From the NCBI GenBank assembly GCA_964016885.1, contig OZ024749.1, forward strand, positions 28,334,001 through 28,398,000: a DNA stretch of 64,000 nucleotides. Direction: 5' to 3'. This document shows, piece after piece, positions 4,709 to 23,103 of the stretch. How positions within the stretch are numbered: the stretch's first letter is position 1; each line of letters opens with the position of its first letter. The DNA is from Eledone cirrhosa (lineage: Eukaryota). The notes below the pieces were generated by a model. The model was not told the origin of the DNA. It saw only the letters and a list, made by a program, of their open reading frames with translations, and did no database searches. Both the position numbers and the translations under genes were made by a program.

Positions 4709-14825
<10,117 letters not shown>

Positions 14826-15462
14826 ATGGTGGCTGCCAACTCGTTTTCGAGTACGGCCACTACTTTACATCCATGTAGGATAACCCCTACCGAAGCGCTG
14901 AACGAGTGTGACTTTTTAATCCAGCCAGCGACTTGAAACCTCTGGTACAAACACTACACCTGTGACAATTATTGACACATAGTGCTAGGCCCATGGTAGG
15001 ACAATTATTGACACATAGTGCTGGGCCCATGTGAGGACAAGTGCAGAGAGATCTCCAGATATAAAGCAATGCCTGTGCCGTGAAGCTTTTATAGTGAGCA
15101 AAGGCACTGCACAAAGCCAGTCCCACTCTCTTAACCAAGATGCTATTTACCAAAAAGAAGAACAAGTCAACATCATTGGATACCATCAGGGTTGCAGGTG
15201 TTATATCAGAGTTTTCCTTCTCCTAGAATTCTGCCTTGACTAAGGCTAAAGGGGTCATCTCTCCCGGTGATTTTGGATGGCCATTGACTCTTAAGAGCTC
15301 CTTTGCCCTTTGACAGGTTTTGTTTTTAGTCCTGCAGGATGTCCAAAGTCACCCTCCTCACCAAGAAACCTTGGTGGGGTTGCCAGTTTAGTCGCCAACG
15401 ACCCGACCATGAGACAGGTTGTACTGGGATACATGTTACCAGTAGCACCAACTGGTGACCTG

Positions 15463-15463
<1 letters not shown>
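14826..15463 (-). mobile_element. Non-autonomous bipartite RTE-derived retroelement, copy 1
   Basis: 15066-15275 is similar to the RTE 5'UTR at 22598-22828. The 3' part encodes [22 protein letters not shown], matching the last RTE zinc finger. It ends in 'tggccgtactcgaaaacgagttggcagccaccat', like the RTE terminus at 18488-18518. This copy has an internal ~35-bp duplication. Confidence 0.9.
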
Positions 15464-15497
<34 letters not shown>

Positions 15498-15857
15498 TAC
15501 ATATATACATACATATATACATATATATATACATACATATACATACATATACATACATACATACATATATATACACATATATATACACATATATACACAT
15601 GTATATACATACACATATATACACATATATATACATATATATACACATATATACACACATATACACATATATATACACATATATACACATATATATACAC
15701 ATATATACACATATATATATACACATATATATATATATACATATATATATACATATACATATACATATATACATATACATATACATATATATATACATAT
15801 ACACATATACATATATATATATCTACATATATATATACACATATATATATACATATA

Positions 15858-18476: not shown

Positions 18477-18548
18477 AATAATAATAATGGCTGCCCCCTC
18501 GTTATCGAGTATGGCCATTGCACAAGAAAAAAAAAAAAAATAATAATA

Positions 18549-18640
18549 ATAATTGTTTCTACTATTGGCACAAGGCCAGAAAATTACCCAGTACATTACT
18601 GGTACTTTATTTTATCGACCCCGTAAGGATGAAAGACAAT
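18549..18640 (-). mobile_element. 3' half of tRNA-derived SINE (family 1), lying inside the RTE 3' region
   Basis: Closely matches 24752-24836 and the reverse complement of 30641-30727 ('...tttcatccttacggggtcgataaaataaagtaccagtaatg...ctggccttgtgcc...agtagaaacaatt'). Confidence 0.85.
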
Positions 18641-18675
18641 AATAAATAAATTAAAAAAAAAAAAAAAAAAGGAAA

Positions 18676-18742
<67 letters not shown>

Positions 18743-18945
18743 CATACATACATATATACACACACACATACATACATATACACACACACACATATACACA
18801 TACATTAATAACAATAATAATAATAATAATAATAGCAATAATGATAATAACGACAACAACAATAATAATATACATATTCATATATATATACACACACACG
18901 CACGCACATAAGCATATCTACACACACACACACACACGATAGCAA

Positions 18946-21900
18946 CTAACAGTGCTGCGATCGAATGTGGCTTTTTAGCCCAGCCAATGATCCAAAATGT
19001 CTTGCACAGAGTCGGCAACCAAAACATTTACTGGGAATAGTCGGCTGTGGTTGGAGTTCGTGAACTTTTGCATGTCGCTTGAGCCCTCCTGCTGATTTAC
19101 ATTCTCTACCACATGTTTGGCAAGCATGATGAGTAGCATCTCCAACAGCAGCCTGGTAGTCAACCACTGGTCTTACTTTATGACTGCGAAGATGACTTTC
19201 GTGTCCAGCTTTGCTTAGGCAGAGTCTCGCACAGACGCTGCATGTCAGAAACATAGGAGGACCCTCGCCGTCTGGAAGTGCAACAGCAATACCCTTCCTC
19301 ACGTCCCGCTTTACTTTCTCGTGTGCGATTCGAGATGCCTCAAAGGCAACTTTTCCCTCATATACAGTCTTTCTCCATTTATTACGATCAGCAGCAACAT
19401 TTTCCCATGTATCAGCAGAGATGTTAGCGTCTCTCAGAGAGGCCTTCAAGGAATCCTTATACCTCTTTTTTGGTTTATGTGGCGGTCGTTTTCCTTTAAC
19501 CAACTCTCCATAGAAGAGTTGTTTTGGTATTCTAGAATCCTTCATCCTGGCAAGGTGACCACTCCAACGGAGTCGCTGCTTAAGCACAAGAGCTTCTATA
19601 CTGTCACACATAGAGCTTTCCAAAATCTCGACATCACTGATGTGGTCCCTCCAGCGAACGCCATGTATCCGTCTGAGACACATCTGATGGAAACGCTCCA
19701 ATTGCTTAAGGTGGCGTCGATATGTGACCCAGGTCTCGCAGGCATAAAGAAGACAAGAGAGTACACATGCCCTGTACACCTTTACCTTTGTCCTCCTGCA
19801 TATGTCTCGCCGACCCCAGAGTCGCCTTTCTAGCTTTCCGAAAGCATCACTTGCTTTCCTAATCCTAAGTGAGATTTCACTGTCAAGGTTGCCGTATCGA
19901 TTGACAGTGCTTCCCAGGTAGACAAACTGATCAACCACTCCAAGTCGTTTGCCATACACATAGATGTTTGGTTCAGTGTACTGCCTACCAGGTGCAGGTT
20001 GGTACATGACGACGGTTTTCTTGAGACTGACAGTCAAACCCAGGGCAGTGCAAGCGTCAGAAAATACATTCAAAATGTGCTGCATATCACTCTCTGTGTG
20101 CGCTACAAGATCGCAATCATCTGCATACAAGAGGTCTCTTATGACTGATGTAAATACTTTTGTCTTCGCAGCAAAGCGCCTGATGTTAAATATGCTGCCT
20201 GAGGTTCGATATCGGATGTAAACACCATGCTCGCAATTCCTGAATGCAATACAGAAAACCATTGCAAAGTATATGGCAAACAGGGTCGGTGCTGGAATAT
20301 CCCCCTGTTTCACTCCATTTTTTACTGAGATAGGCTCCGACATGTTACCTCCGACATTAACCCAAGCCTTCATGTCGTCATGGAAAGACCTAACTAAAGC
20401 AAGGAACTTATCAGGGCAACCAAGTTTCTGGAGAACCTTCCATAATGCATCTCTGTTGACAGTATCGAAAGCCTTTGTCAGATCGACAAAAACCTGATAC
20501 AGATCCAAGCCCTGTTCAATGCACTTCTCCTGGAGCTGTCTAGCTGAGAAGATCATATCAGTAGTGCCGCGTCCAACACGAAAACCAGATTGACTTTCAG
20601 GAAGGACACAATCTGCAATGTGTGTCAGCAGACGGTCCAGAAGCACCCTACATAAAACTTTCCCCACGACAGAAAGCAATGATATACCTCTGTAGTTCCC
20701 ACAATCATTCCTGTTACCCTTTCCCTTGTACAAGACCACCATTACTGCATCTCTCCAGTCCTCAGGCACGGATTCATTAGCCCATATCCTTCCAAACAGA
20801 GAGTGAAGATGTTGCAGGAGTCTCTCACCACCATATTGTAGGAGCTCAGCATGTATGCCATCCATACCTGGAGATCTTCCACTGTTCAGCTTCGAAATAG
20901 CCACTGCAACCTCCACAAGTGTCGGAGGCTCTGCGAGAGCTACTTTCACAGGACTTTCCGGAATGAGATTGAGGAAATCTTCACTGACGACAGACGGCTG
21001 ATTCAAAAGATCATCAAAGTGCTCTCGCCACCTTCGTAGAATTCCCTGTGAGTCACGAAGAAGTTCTTTGCCATCCCTGCTGCGAATCGGTGTCACCAGA
21101 GAAGAAGACGGTCCATAAACCTCACGCAAGAGACTGTACAACAGCTTTGTGTTATTGCAATCAGACGCAGTTTGTATCTCACCAGCCTTCTCACTCCACC
21201 ACTGATCCTTCATCTGAGAAAGACTCCGCCTAACACGTGATTTTACATCCCTGAGCTCCTCATGCAACGTATTCCTCTCCTGTGGTCTTGCCGTCAAGTA
21301 GCGTGACAGAGCGCGCCTCTTATCAGCCAACAAGTCATCTATATGCACATCTTTCTCATTAAACCAGTCCTGATGTTTTCTCTGCACCAATCCCAGAACA
21401 CGTCTGCCTACATCGTAAACCGACTTTTTAAGGGTCGGCCAATCCTCACCAAGATCTGCAGCCTGCATCTCTTCTTCCAATGTCCTCTTCACATTTTTAT
21501 CCTTAAGACGAGCAGCATTCAATCTTTTGGGCAGGGTAACACCAGGAGCCCGGATTTTACGTTTGGTGATTAGATTCACTTTTGCGCGTACCAGGCGGTG
21601 GTCCGTCCAGCACTCAGCTCCACGAAGAACACGAACACACCGCACATCCTGTCTGTCACGCATCCTGACTAGGACGTAGTCCAAAAGATGCCATTCCTTA
21701 GATGCAGGATGCATCCATGTGGTCTTGAATTTGTTCTTTTGTTGGAACATGGTGCTGGTAACACACAGATCCAGCTCCTCACACATCTGCAGCAAGAGCA
21801 TACCATTGCTGTTACACTTTCCCACCCCATGCCTTCCGATTACATTCCATGTGTTAAAATCCCTACCCACTCTAGCATTAAAGTCACCAAGCACGATGAC

Positions 21901-22491
21901 TTTGTCTGCCTGAGGGATATTTCTTAAAACACCTTTCAAGGCATGGTAAAAGGACAGTTTTTCTTCATCGACAGAATTCATAGTTGGAGCATACACACTC
22001 ACCAGGGTAGCATATCTTCCCTTGTCCAGCGGAACTCTCATGGACATAAGACGCTCACTAATCCCCACTGGGAATTCTTCTAATTTATTCACCAGTACAG
22101 TCTTAACAGCAAATCCTACCCCAGCCTCTCTTCTGGTTCCTTCATCTCTTCCTTTCCAGAAGAATGTATATTCTCCACAAAATTCCGTAAGATGACCATC
22201 TCCAGCTAACCTCGTCTCAGACAAAGCCACGATGTCAAGATCGTAACGTCGAAGCTCCTTCGCAACAAGAGCGGTCCTTCGTTCAGGACGCTCCAAAGAA
22301 TCCCTGTCAAGCAGCGTCCGTACGTTCCAGCAGCCAAGACTAAATGCCCTGTTTGGCTCTATTACAATGGCACGATGACGGGCGGGCCCAGGTTGTGATA
22401 ACTTGGGGCCCCTGCCCTTATTGCCAATGATCTTTTTTGTTCCAGAACCCAAATTGGCAATTATCTCGTTTACATTGTTCTGGAACATCAT
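18946..22491 (-). CDS. RTE-clade LINE polyprotein: APE-type endonuclease, reverse transcriptase and three C-terminal C2H2 zinc fingers (1181 aa, intact)
   Basis: EN motifs: WNVRTL, DIVALSETRL, YAPT, GDFNARVG, DYVL, TDHRLV. RT motifs: YRGISLLS, QSGFR, FVDLTKAFDTV, GVKQGD, LLYADD. RTE-type LRWSGHLARM. Fingers: CSVC..HLRSH, CQTC..HAKVH, CRLC..HIRSQH. Confidence 0.97.
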   Translation of the reverse strand: MMFQNNVNEIIANLGSGTKKIIGNKGRGPKLSQPGPARHRAIVIEPNRAFSLGCWNVRTLLDRDSLERPERRTALVAKELRRYDLDIVALSETRLAGDGHLTEFCGEYTFFWKGRDEGTRREAGVGFAVKTVLVNKLEEFPVGISERLMSMRVPLDKGRYATLVSVYAPTMNSVDEEKLSFYHALKGVLRNIPQADKVIVLGDFNARVGRDFNTWNVIGRHGVGKCNSNGMLLLQMCEELDLCVTSTMFQQKNKFKTTWMHPASKEWHLLDYVLVRMRDRQDVRCVRVLRGAECWTDHRLVRAKVNLITKRKIRAPGVTLPKRLNAARLKDKNVKRTLEEEMQAADLGEDWPTLKKSVYDVGRRVLGLVQRKHQDWFNEKDVHIDDLLADKRRALSRYLTARPQERNTLHEELRDVKSRVRRSLSQMKDQWWSEKAGEIQTASDCNNTKLLYSLLREVYGPSSSLVTPIRSRDGKELLRDSQGILRRWREHFDDLLNQPSVVSEDFLNLIPESPVKVALAEPPTLVEVAVAISKLNSGRSPGMDGIHAELLQYGGERLLQHLHSLFGRIWANESVPEDWRDAVMVVLYKGKGNRNDCGNYRGISLLSVVGKVLCRVLLDRLLTHIADCVLPESQSGFRVGRGTTDMIFSARQLQEKCIEQGLDLYQVFVDLTKAFDTVNRDALWKVLQKLGCPDKFLALVRSFHDDMKAWVNVGGNMSEPISVKNGVKQGDIPAPTLFAIYFAMVFCIAFRNCEHGVYIRYRTSGSIFNIRRFAAKTKVFTSVIRDLLYADDCDLVAHTESDMQHILNVFSDACTALGLTVSLKKTVVMYQPAPGRQYTEPNIYVYGKRLGVVDQFVYLGSTVNRYGNLDSEISLRIRKASDAFGKLERRLWGRRDICRRTKVKVYRACVLSCLLYACETWVTYRRHLKQLERFHQMCLRRIHGVRWRDHISDVEILESSMCDSIEALVLKQRLRWSGHLARMKDSRIPKQLFYGELVKGKRPPHKPKKRYKDSLKASLRDANISADTWENVAADRNKWRKTVYEGKVAFEASRIAHEKVKRDVRKGIAVALPDGEGPPMFLTCSVCARLCLSKAGHESHLRSHKVRPVVDYQAAVGDATHHACQTCGRECKSAGGLKRHAKVHELQPQPTIPSKCFGCRLCARHFGSLAGLKSHIRSQHC

Positions 22492-22534
22492 TGAATTGGG
22501 AAAAAAAAAAAAAAAAAAAAAAAAAGTAATAATA

Positions 22535-22569
<35 letters not shown>

Positions 22570-22870
22570 ACACTATTAATAATTATTAATGCACTCGTGC
22601 AATGCCTGTGCGTGACGAATATTTTTAAAGTGAGGAAAGACTGTGCACTGAACCAATCCCACTCTCTGAGCGACAGTAGCTATAACCCGAAAAGAAGAAA
22701 AGATCAACATCATCGGTAACTACTGAGCCGCAGGTTTTATATCGGAGTTAACCCAGTTTCCTGAGATGCCTTCTCCTAGAAGAATACCCTGACATGGGCT
22801 AGGGGTTCTTCACTCCCAGTGGTTTAACTGCGCGATCGGGCATCCAGCCCGATTATTTCTATGTCCCCGC

Positions 22871-22906
<36 letters not shown>

Positions 22907-23103
22907 ACTTATTGACACTTATACGTACGACATACACACACACGCATACATATGCGTGCACACAGCAACACTCACACACACAACAAACACACACACACGC
23001 TACTCTACTCACTTACACGCACACACACACATATATATATATATATTACCGTCATTACTGATACAAGATTACCAGATTACCAGATTATGTCAGATTATGT
23101 CAA

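What the first reader, a model, noticed from the sequence alone, without database searches (positions are those of the whole stretch)
14826..15463. Bipartite non-autonomous RTE derivative: 5'UTR fused to the last zinc finger and 3' stem-loop, four same-strand copies
Seen (minus strand), in order: a ~190-nt head; ~210 nt similar to the 5'UTR of the intact RTE (e.g. ttctaggagaagg, atgatgttga.tt.ttcttctttt, agagagtggga.tgg, gcacaggcattgc; roughly 70% by eye); a short linker; a segment encoding [20 protein letters not shown] ([23 protein letters not shown]); and the terminal stem-loop ctcg-aaaa-cgag matching the RTE end (ctcg-ataa-cgag). There is no tRNA head. Established: bipartite 5'+3' RTE-derived non-autonomous elements are known in other animals. 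Inference: this is a young family from a sister RTE lineage, mobilised in trans. All copies are full length with the same ends, three at independent sites, and all lie on the minus strand in CATA/TA tracts.
Basis: partly seen in the sequence, partly recalled or inferred. Interest (0 to 1): 0.75.

Follow-up and report, generated by a model that had tools for sequence, protein, structure and literature searches.

The report
Two-ended mini-retrotransposon homing to microsatellites
This is one copy of a short, very abundant jumping element built from the front and back ends of a larger RTE-like retrotransposon; its copies sit almost only inside TA/TATG simple repeats, in one direction, and it is likely copied by the larger element's enzyme. 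The kind of element is known, and the strict landing habit is the unusual part.

Summary
Four minus-strand copies lie in the window. Two of them belong to a ~5.3-kb tandem duplication.

The element has five parts: a ~147-nt head, a ~250-nt block homologous to the 5'UTR of the RTE-like LINE at 18487-23103, a linker, the LINE type's last zinc-finger codons with the stop codon in the same place, and a 3' stem-loop ending in CAT.

The genome holds 28,107 exact copies of the 17-nt tail, evenly split between strands. Forty of 40 scored copies are ~100% identical over the full length.

- 74% of tails run straight into a perfect 12-nt (A/G)T repeat.
- TG-type repeats outnumber CA-type 15,373 to 806 downstream.
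- Upstream, 12-mers without C outnumber those without G 6,788 to 1,662.
- Such repeats cover ~7% of 200 kb of arbitrary genome.

The LINE has the same junctions.

Verdict: a bipartite non-autonomous RTE derivative, which is a known kind (Kojima 2018), with orientation-specific microsatellite insertion that my literature searches did not find described for RTE. Transcription, the trans-mobilising LINE and the priming mechanism are inferred.

The parts
14826..15463 (-). The copy in the finding: 638 bp, a member of the subfamily with the 28-bp duplication
   Evidence: Read. It is the self-match. 40 of 40 scored genomic copies match it at ~100% over 1-638.
15464..15467 (-). TATG directly before TCAGG: probably the element's own first four bases, which equal one microsatellite unit
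   Evidence: 29 of 30 loci have ATG before TCAGG. 14 of 30 have TTATG, which breaks the repeat phase. 6,788 genomic 5' ends match TATG plus the head with a C-free 12-mer upstream.
15317..15463 (-). Head (~147 nt): absent from the LINE, with no small-RNA match
   Evidence: No LINE match. No tRNA. No credible Rfam hit. A ~75%-like head stands in another family at L077:790-695, and an 83%-like one at L142:485-590.
15066..15316 (-). 5' block shared with the LINE 5'UTR and with other lineages; the LINE-alignable part is 15066-15273
   Evidence: 157 of 230 columns match the LINE, E 5e-26. A profile search found 100 hits in held DNA, including lineages at 68-75%.
14984..15065 (-). Linker with no LINE counterpart; it holds the 28-bp tandem duplication 14999-15026 that marks this subfamily
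   Evidence: Alignment gap in the other three copies. '28 left out' at 14999 in contigs of runs X4 and X5.
14887..14983 (-). Remnant of the LINE type's last C2H2 finger, with TAG at the same distance after ..KSH.RS as in the LINE
   Evidence: 65 of 105 columns, E 6e-5. This copy has lost the second His. The copies at 57156 and 62470 keep it, and the frame-shifted copy at 46744 keeps its codon.
14826..14869 (-). 3' stem-loop (GUGGC.GUACUCG-AAAA-CGAG..GC.GCCAC) followed by CAT
   Evidence: Folds at -14.8 kcal/mol, z -2.5. 26 of 30 positions match the LINE end. On three lineages, 32 of 36 pair cells are kept and 2 pairs are compensatory. 21,179 exact genomic copies of the 35-mer.
46744..47347 (-). 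Second copy (604 bp; 1-nt deletion in the finger remnant)
57156..57764 (-). Third copy (609 bp), inside a tandem duplicated segment
62470..63078 (-). Fourth copy (609 bp), the duplicate of the third
   Evidence: Within the element it is identical to the third copy. The surrounding segment 59401-64000 matches 54052-58748 at 89%.
18487..23103 (-). RTE-like LINE, 5'-truncated copy (full-length copies elsewhere are ~6.1 kb). The ORF from Met is 22491-18946, 1181 codons: APE, RT and C-terminal C2H2 fingers.
   Evidence: Translation. Pfam RVT_1 1.6e-30 and Exo_endo_phos 1.3e-11. Full-length 5' end GAGGGAGCTTATAG.. directly after (TATG)n in 4 of 7 copies examined. No ORF1.
22599..22825 (-). The LINE's copy of the shared 5'UTR block, just upstream of (TTA)n(T)n and the start codon
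18487..18530 (-). The LINE's 3' stem-loop. This copy ends ..GCAGCCATTAT; 25 of 28 other copies end ..GCAGCCATCAT followed by (GTAT)n.
14600..14825 (-). Downstream (GTAT)n/(AT)n tract: tail and/or target
   Evidence: Microsatellite run of 139 nt by the walk (locus L001).
15468..15700 (-). Upstream (TATG)n/(TA)n tract: the target, since it cannot come from this element's 3' tail
   Evidence: Run of 387 nt, ending in unrelated sequence (locus L001).

Best explanation
This is one copy of a 604-638-bp protein-less retroposon made of a ~147-nt head, a ~250-nt block shared with the 5'UTR of an RTE-like LINE, and that LINE type's last zinc-finger codons and 3' stem-loop; the genome holds at least 28,000 of its 3' ends, mostly inside (TA)n/(TATG)n microsatellites with the TG strand as sense strand, and it is likely copied in trans by the LINE's endonuclease-reverse transcriptase, which would prime on the nicked CA strand of the repeat.

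Shown directly:
- the anatomy and its homology to the LINE;
- the copy number and the near-identity of many copies;
- 5'-truncated copies;
- the precise ends;
- the microsatellite flanks on both sides and their polarity;
- the same junctions for the LINE itself.

Inferred:
1. The element arose by internal deletion of a LINE of a sister lineage. The same genome shows that such deletions recur.
2. Its RNA is made by RNA polymerase II from the retained 5' part.
3. The LINE protein recognises the 3' stem-loop.
4. The RNA ends in a few (AUGU) units that anneal to the (ACAT)n 3'-OH left by the nick. This would fix both the site and the orientation.
5. The 5' end (TATG...) is joined by microhomology with the repeat.
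6. Each insertion brings a new (GTAT)n tail that serves as a further landing site. This would give same-strand clusters such as the one in this window.
For: Anatomy: three collinear homologies to the LINE with E 5e-26, 6e-5 and 2e-4. The stop codon sits at the same place.

Tail: the 44-nt alignment and the stem-loop are kept across three lineages, with 32 of 36 pair cells formed and compensatory changes in 2 pairs.

Abundance and youth:
- 2,066 first-look candidates, with 40 of 40 scored at ~100% over 638 bp;
- 21,179 exact 35-mers and 28,107 exact 17-mers, with reversed-pattern controls at 0;
- older copies at 86-89% in arbitrary DNA.

Retroposition signature: of the 26 copies with a 3' end in held DNA that were not fetched for being full length, 15 are 5'-truncated.

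Target:
- 30 of 30 loci are flanked on both sides by TA/TG repeats.
- 20,765 of 28,107 tails (74%) are followed by a perfect (R-T)6, against ~7.4% of 200 kb of arbitrary genome in such repeats on either strand.

Polarity:
- Downstream, 15,373 TG-type versus 806 CA-type.
- Upstream, 6,788 C-free versus 1,662 G-free 12-mers.
- Upstream tracts abut another element's tail in only 4 of 30 loci.

LINE:
- 40 of 40 scored copies are 100% identical at the ORF start and at least 99% at the ORF end.
- Full-length and 5'-truncated copies directly follow (TATG)n.
- 25 of 28 copies end ..GCAGCCATCAT followed by (GTAT)n.

Recurrent deletion derivatives in the same genome: L028, L016/L067, and L124/L018/L009.

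Landing pads: 7 of 28 LINE tails have another member of these families within 400 nt downstream on the same strand.

Literature: bipartite ORF-less derivatives are documented for RTE (Kojima 2018, PMC5786205, sections 15 and 22 read). RTE 3' repeat tails have been proposed to steer integration (Nishiyama and Ohshima 2018, PMC6007223, abstract and passages read).
Against: No LINE with the element's own tail or finger sequence was found. The window's LINE differs from the element at 4 of the 30 aligned tail positions, more over the 44-nt alignment, and in the loop (AAAA versus ATAA). Recognition by this LINE is therefore assumed, not shown.

No transcript evidence exists.

The covariation support for the stem-loop rests on three sequences, and 42 of 500 shuffles do as well.

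26% of tails are not followed by a perfect 12-nt repeat, and I did not examine what follows them.

Target-site duplications could not be read in repeats. One locus (L013) suggests 9-11 bp, and another (L027) shows none.

The downstream repeat may be partly the element's own tail, so only the upstream counts speak cleanly for a pre-existing target.

Membership of the LINE in the RTE clade was not tested by a tree.
Confidence: 0.8

Rival explanations
1. The elements do not seek microsatellites. Instead they create them: their 3' repeat tails grow by slippage during or after retroposition, so the association is a by-product.
For: RTE elements are described as progenitors of simple repeats in Lepidoptera (Tay et al. 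2010, PMC2887409, abstract read). Some LINE copies here have only 3-6 repeat units between the tail and unique DNA. 7 of 28 LINE tails are followed by another family member, so tails do add repeat DNA.
Against: A 3' tail cannot explain the upstream flank. 30 of 30 element loci have upstream repeats, median 130 nt, and only 4 of 30 abut another element's tail. Genome-wide, 6,788 5' ends have a C-free 12-mer upstream against 1,662 G-free. 5'-truncated LINE copies also directly follow (TATG)n that starts from unique DNA, as in L148 and L064.
Confidence: 0.1
2. It is a true SINE: the head is a diverged small-RNA gene with an internal pol III promoter, and the LINE-like parts are only its body and tail.
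For: A related head (about 75% over 74 nt) stands at the front of another family (L077). That family also carries a 23-mer that is 20 of 23 identical to the motif Kojima quotes for the RTE-like part of cephalopod SINEs (PMC5786205 section 15). Three heads share conserved blocks and a hairpin.
Against: ARAGORN finds no tRNA in the window, L001, L077 or L142. Rfam at E up to 1 gives only hits to microsatellite-like miRNA models and weak scattered ones. A T5 run at about element 306-310 (window ~15154-15158) and T4 runs in the relatives would be expected to stop pol III; this is established knowledge, not tested here.
Confidence: 0.1
3. The helper is not the LINE in the window but a separate sister LINE that carries the element's exact finger, stop codon and tail, either still present at low copy number or recently lost.
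For: Identity to the window's LINE is only 68% in the 5' block, 62% in the finger and 87% over the last 30 nt. Meanwhile each family is ~100% identical within itself. The genome holds several diverged lineages of this superfamily.
Against: None of 56 element-type 3' ends in held DNA continues into a LINE body. Only two tail types were common in about 0.7 Mb of held DNA. The stem-loop of the window's LINE type is structurally the same, and that LINE is clearly active.
Confidence: 0.3
4. The copies spread as DNA by segmental or tandem duplication of repeat-rich regions.
For: Two of the four window copies are a tandem duplicate.
Against: Thirty loci on many contigs share only the element, with different flanks and precise ends. 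5'-truncated copies are common. The tail occurs 28,107 times, evenly on both strands.
Confidence: 0.01

Closest known systems
Bipartite ORF-less non-autonomous RTE derivatives, such as WALLSI3 and RTESINE2 (Kojima 2018, PMC5786205; abstract and sections 15 and 22 read)
   Same: Only 5' and 3' regions of an RTE-type LINE are kept after internal deletion. There is no small-RNA head, the 3' tail is shared with the LINE, and pol II transcription is presumed.
   Different: The retained 5' block is not the LINE's 5' end. It lies ~1.2 kb inside the present LINE's 1.6-kb 5'UTR and is preceded here by an unrelated 147-nt head. A finger-coding remnant is kept. Insertion is confined to one microsatellite type and one orientation.
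Octopus RTE-2_OV LINE (Petrosino et al. 2022, PMC9115989; passages read)
   Same: As described there: a single ORF of ~1,100 aa with endonuclease, RT and a C2H2 finger ('relatively rare in RTE'), and a microsatellite beginning right after the ORF and filling most of the 3'UTR. The window's LINE has all of these.
   Different: No sequence of RTE-2_OV was available to compare, so this is a resemblance of descriptions only. In the passages I read, that paper reports no target preference and no non-autonomous derivative.
Microsatellite-specific LINEs: Togen on (TG)n and some Hero families (Kojima and Jurka 2015, PMC4640811; passages read); Dong on (TAA)n and Waldo on (ACAY)n (recalled; Kojima and Fujiwara 2004 seen only in a reference list)
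   Same: Copies sit in one kind of simple repeat, with fixed orientation and precise junctions.
   Different: Those lineages belong to clades related to NeSL, to Hero and R4, and (recalled) to R1. Here the LINE has RTE-like architecture, and the bulk of insertions come from a non-autonomous derivative.
Ceph-SINEs and the conserved RTE 5'UTR domain (Kojima 2018, section 15)
   Same: A block from the middle of an RTE 5'UTR is reused in short retroposons and conserved across lineages. A family in this genome (L077) has a 23-mer that is 20 of 23 identical to the quoted motif, next to sequence shared with this element's block.
   Different: Ceph-SINEs have tRNA heads and a CORE-like part, and none was detected here. 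I could not align to the published domain because its figure is not held.
RTE elements as a source of microsatellite families in Lepidoptera (Tay et al. 2010, PMC2887409; abstract read)
   Same: RTE 3' ends are tightly linked to simple repeats, and 3' partial copies are abundant.
   Different: There the repeats are explained as products of the elements. Here the upstream flanks show insertion into existing repeats.

Membership tests
Bipartite non-autonomous LINE (RTE-derived) | Holds 5' and 3' regions of an autonomous LINE, collinear, with the middle deleted | tested here: met
   Three collinear matches. The 5' region matches an internal part of the present LINE's 5'UTR, not its terminus.
Bipartite non-autonomous LINE (RTE-derived) | Encodes no LINE protein | tested here: met
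   Only short frames exist: 35 codons in two copies, frame-shifted in one, and 99 codons in the 638-bp form because the 28-bp duplication shifts the frame. No frame is conserved with the LINE's 5'UTR.
Bipartite non-autonomous LINE (RTE-derived) | Shares the 3' terminal recognition sequence with a LINE of the same genome | tested here: met
   26 of 30 positions. The same stem-loop and terminal CAT.
Bipartite non-autonomous LINE (RTE-derived) | Mobilised in trans by that LINE's protein | not testable with these tools
   Needs a retrotransposition assay.
SINE in the strict sense (pol III, small-RNA head) | 5' head derived from tRNA, 5S, 7SL or snRNA, with an internal promoter | tested here: not met
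   ARAGORN finds none. No credible Rfam match. There is an internal T5 run.
RTE clade of LINEs (for the partner at 18487-23103) | Single ORF with N-terminal APE endonuclease and RT, and no ORF1 | tested here: met
   Pfam domains. No sense-strand ORF of 50 codons or more in the 1.6-kb 5'UTR other than low-complexity ones.
RTE clade of LINEs (for the partner at 18487-23103) | 3' end of simple repeats instead of poly(A) | tested here: met
   ..CAT followed by (GTAT)n or (AT)n in 25 of 28 copies.
RTE clade of LINEs (for the partner at 18487-23103) | RT groups with RTE references in a tree | not testable with these tools
   No named reference LINE sequences were at hand. The homologues found carry no informative names.
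RTE clade of LINEs (for the partner at 18487-23103) | No C-terminal Cys/His motif, and a very short 3'UTR (recalled from Malik and Eickbush 1998) | tested here: not met
   Three C-terminal C2H2-like fingers and a 330-600-nt 3'UTR that is largely repeats. The octopus RTE-2_OV is described with the same departures (PMC9115989).
Target-specific (microsatellite-specific) LINE/SINE | Most copies lie in the same target sequence | tested here: met
   30 of 30 loci. 20,765 of 28,107 tails have a perfect 12-nt repeat, against a background of ~7.4%.
Target-specific (microsatellite-specific) LINE/SINE | Fixed orientation relative to the target | tested here: met
   15,373 versus 806 downstream. 6,788 versus 1,662 upstream.
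Target-specific (microsatellite-specific) LINE/SINE | Specificity set by the element's endonuclease or DNA-binding domain | not testable with these tools
   Needs nicking or binding assays. Annealing of the RNA tail is an equally good explanation.

The most novel reading that the evidence does not exclude
An RTE-type LINE lineage that gained C-terminal C2H2 fingers has become a strict, strand-specific microsatellite homer. Together with a 28,000-copy parasite of itself, it feeds a self-reinforcing cycle: each insertion adds a new (GTAT)n tail that is the next landing pad. This builds the multi-kb same-polarity TA/TATG arrays seen in this window and much of the ~7% of the genome made of such repeats. 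The fingers, not only RNA-tail annealing, would read the repeat and its polarity. This would be the first protein-encoded target specificity in the RTE clade.
Probability: 0.25. Interest if true: 0.7.

Novelty: new variant of a known kind. Interest (0 to 1): 0.5.

Why it matters
Bipartite RTE derivatives are catalogued, so the element as first described is an ordinary member of a known kind. Three points add value.

1. Scale and freshness. At least 28,000 tails, with dozens of identical full-length copies beside an equally fresh LINE, make this a live LINE/parasite pair suitable for experiments.

2. Target choice. Insertion is almost exclusive and strand-specific, into one class of microsatellite. 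That is a safe-harbour strategy known from other LINE clades. For RTE I found it only proposed, as a tail-driven bias. Here it can be tested directly by swapping tails, stem-loops and fingers.

3. Recurrent derivatives. Several independent derivatives and lineages in one genome keep the same ~250-nt 5'UTR block. This makes the long-noted but unexplained conservation of RTE 5'UTR sequence open to deletion analysis.

The element also explains a practical annotation problem: same-strand clusters of elements embedded in multi-kb TA/TATG arrays.

Tried and rejected
- RNA evidence. The look-up of sequencing runs listed no RNA holder. The one 'RNA?' run (X14) is a guess and gave two short contigs. 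Nothing can be said on expression.
- Known RNA families. Rfam at permissive thresholds on the element, on the LINE 5'UTR and on two loci with related heads gave only matches of the flanking repeats to miRNA models, plus weak scattered hits. No ribozyme family was found. HDV-like ribozymes are poorly caught by such models (recalled), so this is not evidence of absence.
- tRNA head. None found.
- A closer ('sister') LINE. It was not seen in ~0.7 Mb of held DNA. The own-genome search scores only the 40 best candidates, so a direct search is swamped by the element itself.
- Relatives of the LINE in metagenome contigs. Only 22-36% identical pieces were found, of no use for tails. The protein search gave many 48-64% relatives without informative names.
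- Splicing as the origin of the deletion derivative in L028. Rejected, because the junction shows a CGA microhomology and no AG acceptor.
- A conserved upstream ORF in the 5' block. Rejected, because a 1-nt indel puts the LINE and the element in different frames.
- Target-site duplications. They are unreadable in perfect repeats. There is one suggestive case and one contrary case.
- Earlier findings of this scan. Nothing by place, words or sequence.
- Literature on microsatellite-specific RTE insertion, or on this family. Six searches found none. Subscription journals, Repbase Reports and Dfam are outside what I could search.
Full report
**1. What is at the coordinates**

Read on the minus strand, window 15463-14826 is a 638-bp unit between long (TATG)n/(TA)n tracts. 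BLAST against the window finds four full-length minus-strand copies: 15463-14826, 47347-46744, 57764-57156 and 63078-62470. In their alignment 619 of 691 columns are invariant and the ends are identical.

The copy in the finding carries a 28-bp tandem duplication (14999-15026) that the other three lack. The last two copies are identical to each other and lie in a tandem duplicated segment, 54052-58748 versus 59401-64000, 89% identical. The window therefore holds three independent insertions.

**2. Anatomy**

Against the LINE on the same strand (23130-18481), three collinear local alignments are significant:
- element 191-398 with the part of the 5'UTR just before the start codon: 157 of 230 columns, E 5e-26;
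- element 481-585 with the last zinc finger and the stop codon: 65 of 105, E 6e-5;
- element 605-634 with the LINE's last 30 nt: 26 of 30, E 2e-4.

The finger remnant reads ..[24 protein letters not shown], against the LINE's ..[26 protein letters not shown]. The stop codon sits at the same distance.

The frame is not maintained as a gene. It runs 35 codons from an accATGG in two copies, is frame-shifted in one copy, and runs 99 codons in the 638-bp form, where the 28-bp duplication shifts the frame. The very successful 638-bp form has lost the second histidine.

The last 44 nt fold into a stem-loop (-14.8 kcal/mol, z -2.5). Aligned with the LINE's end and with the end of a third lineage, 32 of 36 pair cells are kept and two pairs change on both sides (G-C to A-U, G-C to U-A). 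With only three sequences this is weak, because 42 of 500 shuffles do as well.

The first ~147 nt (the 'head') match nothing in the LINE, no tRNA and no credible Rfam family.

**3. The LINE**

The ORF from its first Met (22491-18946, 1181 codons) has an APE-type endonuclease, a reverse transcriptase and C2H2-like fingers at the C terminus.

The window's copy is 5'-truncated. Elsewhere the element is ~6.1 kb, with a ~1.6-kb 5'UTR that holds no ORF1. In 4 of 7 copies examined it starts GAGGGAGCTTATAG directly after (TATG)n.

It is as fresh as the short element. 40 of 40 scored copies are 100% identical over 331 nt at the ORF start, from 1,405 candidates. 40 of 40 are at least 99% identical at the ORF end, from 969 candidates.

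In 28 of the 30 fetched loci a 3' end was present. The 3'UTR is mostly simple repeats. 25 of these ends read ..GCAATGGCCATACTCGATAACGAGGGGGCAGCCATCAT followed by (GTAT)n or (AT)n, and 3, including the window's, read ..CCATTAT. The window's copy also has an unrelated ~100-nt repeat inserted at about 18541-18639.

**4. Abundance and age of the short element**

- The own-genome search found 2,066 first-look candidates. All 40 that were scored match 1-638 at ~100% on at least 16 contigs and on both strands.
- Exact-pattern counts over the whole 3.0-Gb assembly give 21,179 copies of the 35-nt tail and 28,107 of its last 17 nt, 14,072 forward and 14,035 reverse. The reversed control pattern gives 0.
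- The LINE-type 17-mer occurs 6,637 times.
- In 200 kb taken at arbitrary round coordinates I found two old, 5'-truncated copies at 86-89%.
- In all held DNA, 56 copies include the 3' end. Leaving out the 30 loci fetched for being full length, 11 are full length and 15 are 5'-truncated at scattered positions. None starts at 400-480, where a LINE body would go on.
- Contigs of one public run (X1) gave 13,838 matching pieces. About a quarter of the summed depth carries the 28-bp duplication.

**5. Where the copies sit**

All 30 fetched loci have TA/TG repeats on both sides, and 29 of 30 read ..ATG|TCAGG at the 5' end.

Genome-wide, 20,765 of 28,107 tails (74%) are followed without a break by a perfect (A/G-T)6. 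By a 40-nt, 85% criterion, such repeats on either strand make up 7.4% of the 200 kb of arbitrary DNA and 53% of this window.

Polarity downstream: subtracting the 5,392 pure (AT)6 cases leaves 15,373 TG-type cases against 806 CA-type cases, about 19 to 1.

The downstream repeat could be the element's own tail, so I also tested the upstream side. 6,788 5' ends (TATG plus 16 nt of head) have no C in the 12 nt before them, against 1,662 with no G. Of the first 100 listed in the G-free class, 76 are pure A/T and only 24 hold a C.

Upstream tracts have a median of 130 nt. In 4 of 30 loci they abut another element's tail. In 6 they run past the locus edge. In most of the rest the walk ends within repeat-like sequence at an interruption, and in about ten loci it ends in unrelated DNA.

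The LINE behaves alike. Full-length and 5'-truncated copies directly follow (TATG)n that rises from unique DNA.

The four same-strand copies of the finding and the LINE between them are thus explained. The whole window is one polar (CATA)n/(TA)n landscape, with negative GC skew throughout, and insertions take its polarity.

**6. The family context**

The same genome shows that bipartite derivatives arise repeatedly.
- L028 holds the LINE's 5'UTR joined, at a CGA microhomology, to codon ~1085 of its ORF.
- L016 and L067 hold the 5' block joined, after ~45 nt, to the LINE-type tail.
- L124, L018 and L009 hold a more distant version of the block with a third kind of tail..GTACTCTTAGCAGAGTTTGCAGGTATCAT.

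In several of these lineages the shared block begins right at the element's 5' end with ..GAGTCAACGGCCATCCAAA. That corresponds to element position ~150 here. The head is therefore an addition in front of an older 5' end, just as the present LINE has ~1.2 kb in front of its own copy of the block.

A related head (76% over 74 nt) stands in yet another family, at L077. There it is followed by a 23-mer that is 20 of 23 identical to the motif Kojima quotes as the start of the RTE-like part of cephalopod SINEs (PMC5786205 section 15).

Seven of 28 LINE tails have another member of these families within 400 nt downstream on the same strand. This is what one expects if tails serve as landing sites.

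**7. How it most likely works**

Shown: structure, homology, numbers, junctions and polarity.

Inferred, in order of confidence:
1. Retroposition by target-primed reverse transcription. This is supported by the 5' truncations, the precise 3' ends and the shared LINE tail.
2. Use of the LINE's protein through the 3' stem-loop.
3. Priming by annealing of terminal (AUGU) units of the RNA to the 3'-OH of the nicked (ACAT)n strand. This accounts at once for the site, the orientation and the in-phase ..CAT|GTAT junction.
4. 5' joining by TATG microhomology.
5. Pol II transcription from the retained 5' part. The internal T5 run argues against pol III.

Whether the endonuclease or the fingers add specificity of their own is open.

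**8. Compared with what is known**

Bipartite ORF-less derivatives are documented for RTE, Ingi, Vingi and R2. [quoted passage not shown]

An octopus RTE with endonuclease, RT, a C2H2 finger and a 3'UTR that is mostly microsatellite has been described (Petrosino 2022; passages read). I could not compare sequences.

RTE 3' repeat tails have been linked to the first base of the duplication, and it has been proposed that they steer integration (Nishiyama and Ohshima 2018; abstract and passages read). RTEs have also been seen as makers of microsatellites (Tay 2010; abstract read).

Strict microsatellite specificity is documented for other clades (Kojima and Jurka 2015; passages read). In six full-text searches I found no report of it for RTE, and no report of this family. 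Repbase, Dfam and subscription journals were out of reach.

I therefore file the element as a bipartite non-autonomous RTE derivative, with orientation-specific microsatellite insertion as the new variant.

**9. Limits**

- No transcript data.
- No tree for the LINE.
- No empty sites.
- Duplications are unreadable in repeats.
- The 26% of tails without a perfect repeat were not inspected.
- Own-genome DNA searches score only 40 candidates, so identity distributions are not representative.
- Names of organisms in the public runs are coded. Twenty rows from 17 studies hold part of the element, and one contig of another coded organism (X5) spans the whole 609-bp form with 13 differences. That fact cannot be interpreted further.

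Noticed in passing
window 6000-14000: About 8 kb of almost pure (TA)n/(CATA)n, with GC of 6-12% and GC skew near -1. By a 40-nt, 85% criterion, 53% of the whole window is TA/TG-type microsatellite, against 7.4% in 200 kb of arbitrary genome.
   Followed up: partly
window 54052-58748 and 59401-64000: A tandem segmental duplication of ~5.3 kb, 89% identical, mostly microsatellite, carrying one element copy in each unit.
   Followed up: yes
window 18541-18639: An unrelated ~100-nt repeat (..ggggtcgataaaataaagtaccagtaatgtactggg..) is inserted in the LINE's 3'UTR. 1,024 first-look candidates in the genome, at 92-99% identity. Its family was not identified.
   Followed up: no
L028:2380-2800 (minus): An independent deletion derivative of the LINE itself. 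The 5'UTR up to ..CAGGCATTGCACGA is joined to ORF codon ~1085 at a CGA microhomology, and the short element later inserted into its 3'UTR repeat. Its copy number was not measured.
   Followed up: partly
L016:2495-2886 (minus); L067:389-762: A second, shorter bipartite family: the 5' block, ~45 nt, then the LINE-type stem-loop tail, with no finger remnant.
   Followed up: partly
L124:2225-2578; L018:2905-3151 (minus); L009:983-1026: A third lineage with a 70-74% version of the 5' block. Its tail is ..GTACTCTTAGCAGAGTTTGCAGGTATCAT, whose inner stem covaries with the LINE's (CTCG/CGAG becomes CTCT/AGAG).
   Followed up: partly
L077:500-793 (minus): Another short family with a related head, followed by CCAACTATGGGTTAAATAGC. 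That is 20 of 23 identical to the motif quoted for the RTE-like part of cephalopod SINEs in PMC5786205.
   Followed up: partly
L150 (C1:311888800-311897800), about 5260-5380: A 5'-truncated LINE is preceded by the reverse complement of a LINE 3'UTR and tail. This may be an inversion of the twin-priming kind or a head-to-head pair.
   Followed up: no
window 14887-15186 (minus): In the 638-bp subfamily the 28-bp duplication fuses frames into a 99-codon ORF running from the 5' block into the finger remnant. It is absent in the 604-609-bp copies and is probably fortuitous.
   Followed up: partly
L007, L014, L022 (flanks of element loci): A further repeat..gaacacggacgttaaacgttgatgatgat.., with a (GAT)n end borders the TA/TATG tracts in three loci.
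   Followed up: no
public runs X4, X5, X14 (coded): Runs labelled as other organisms hold 40-50% of the element's sampled words. One 667-nt contig of X5 spans the whole 609-bp form with 13 differences. With coded names I cannot tell whether these are related species.
   Followed up: partly
L061:6635-8225: The full-length LINE's 5'UTR (~1.6 kb) is itself full of internal simple repeats, including a long A-rich run, (CA)n and (CAC)n. It has no ORF1.
   Followed up: partly
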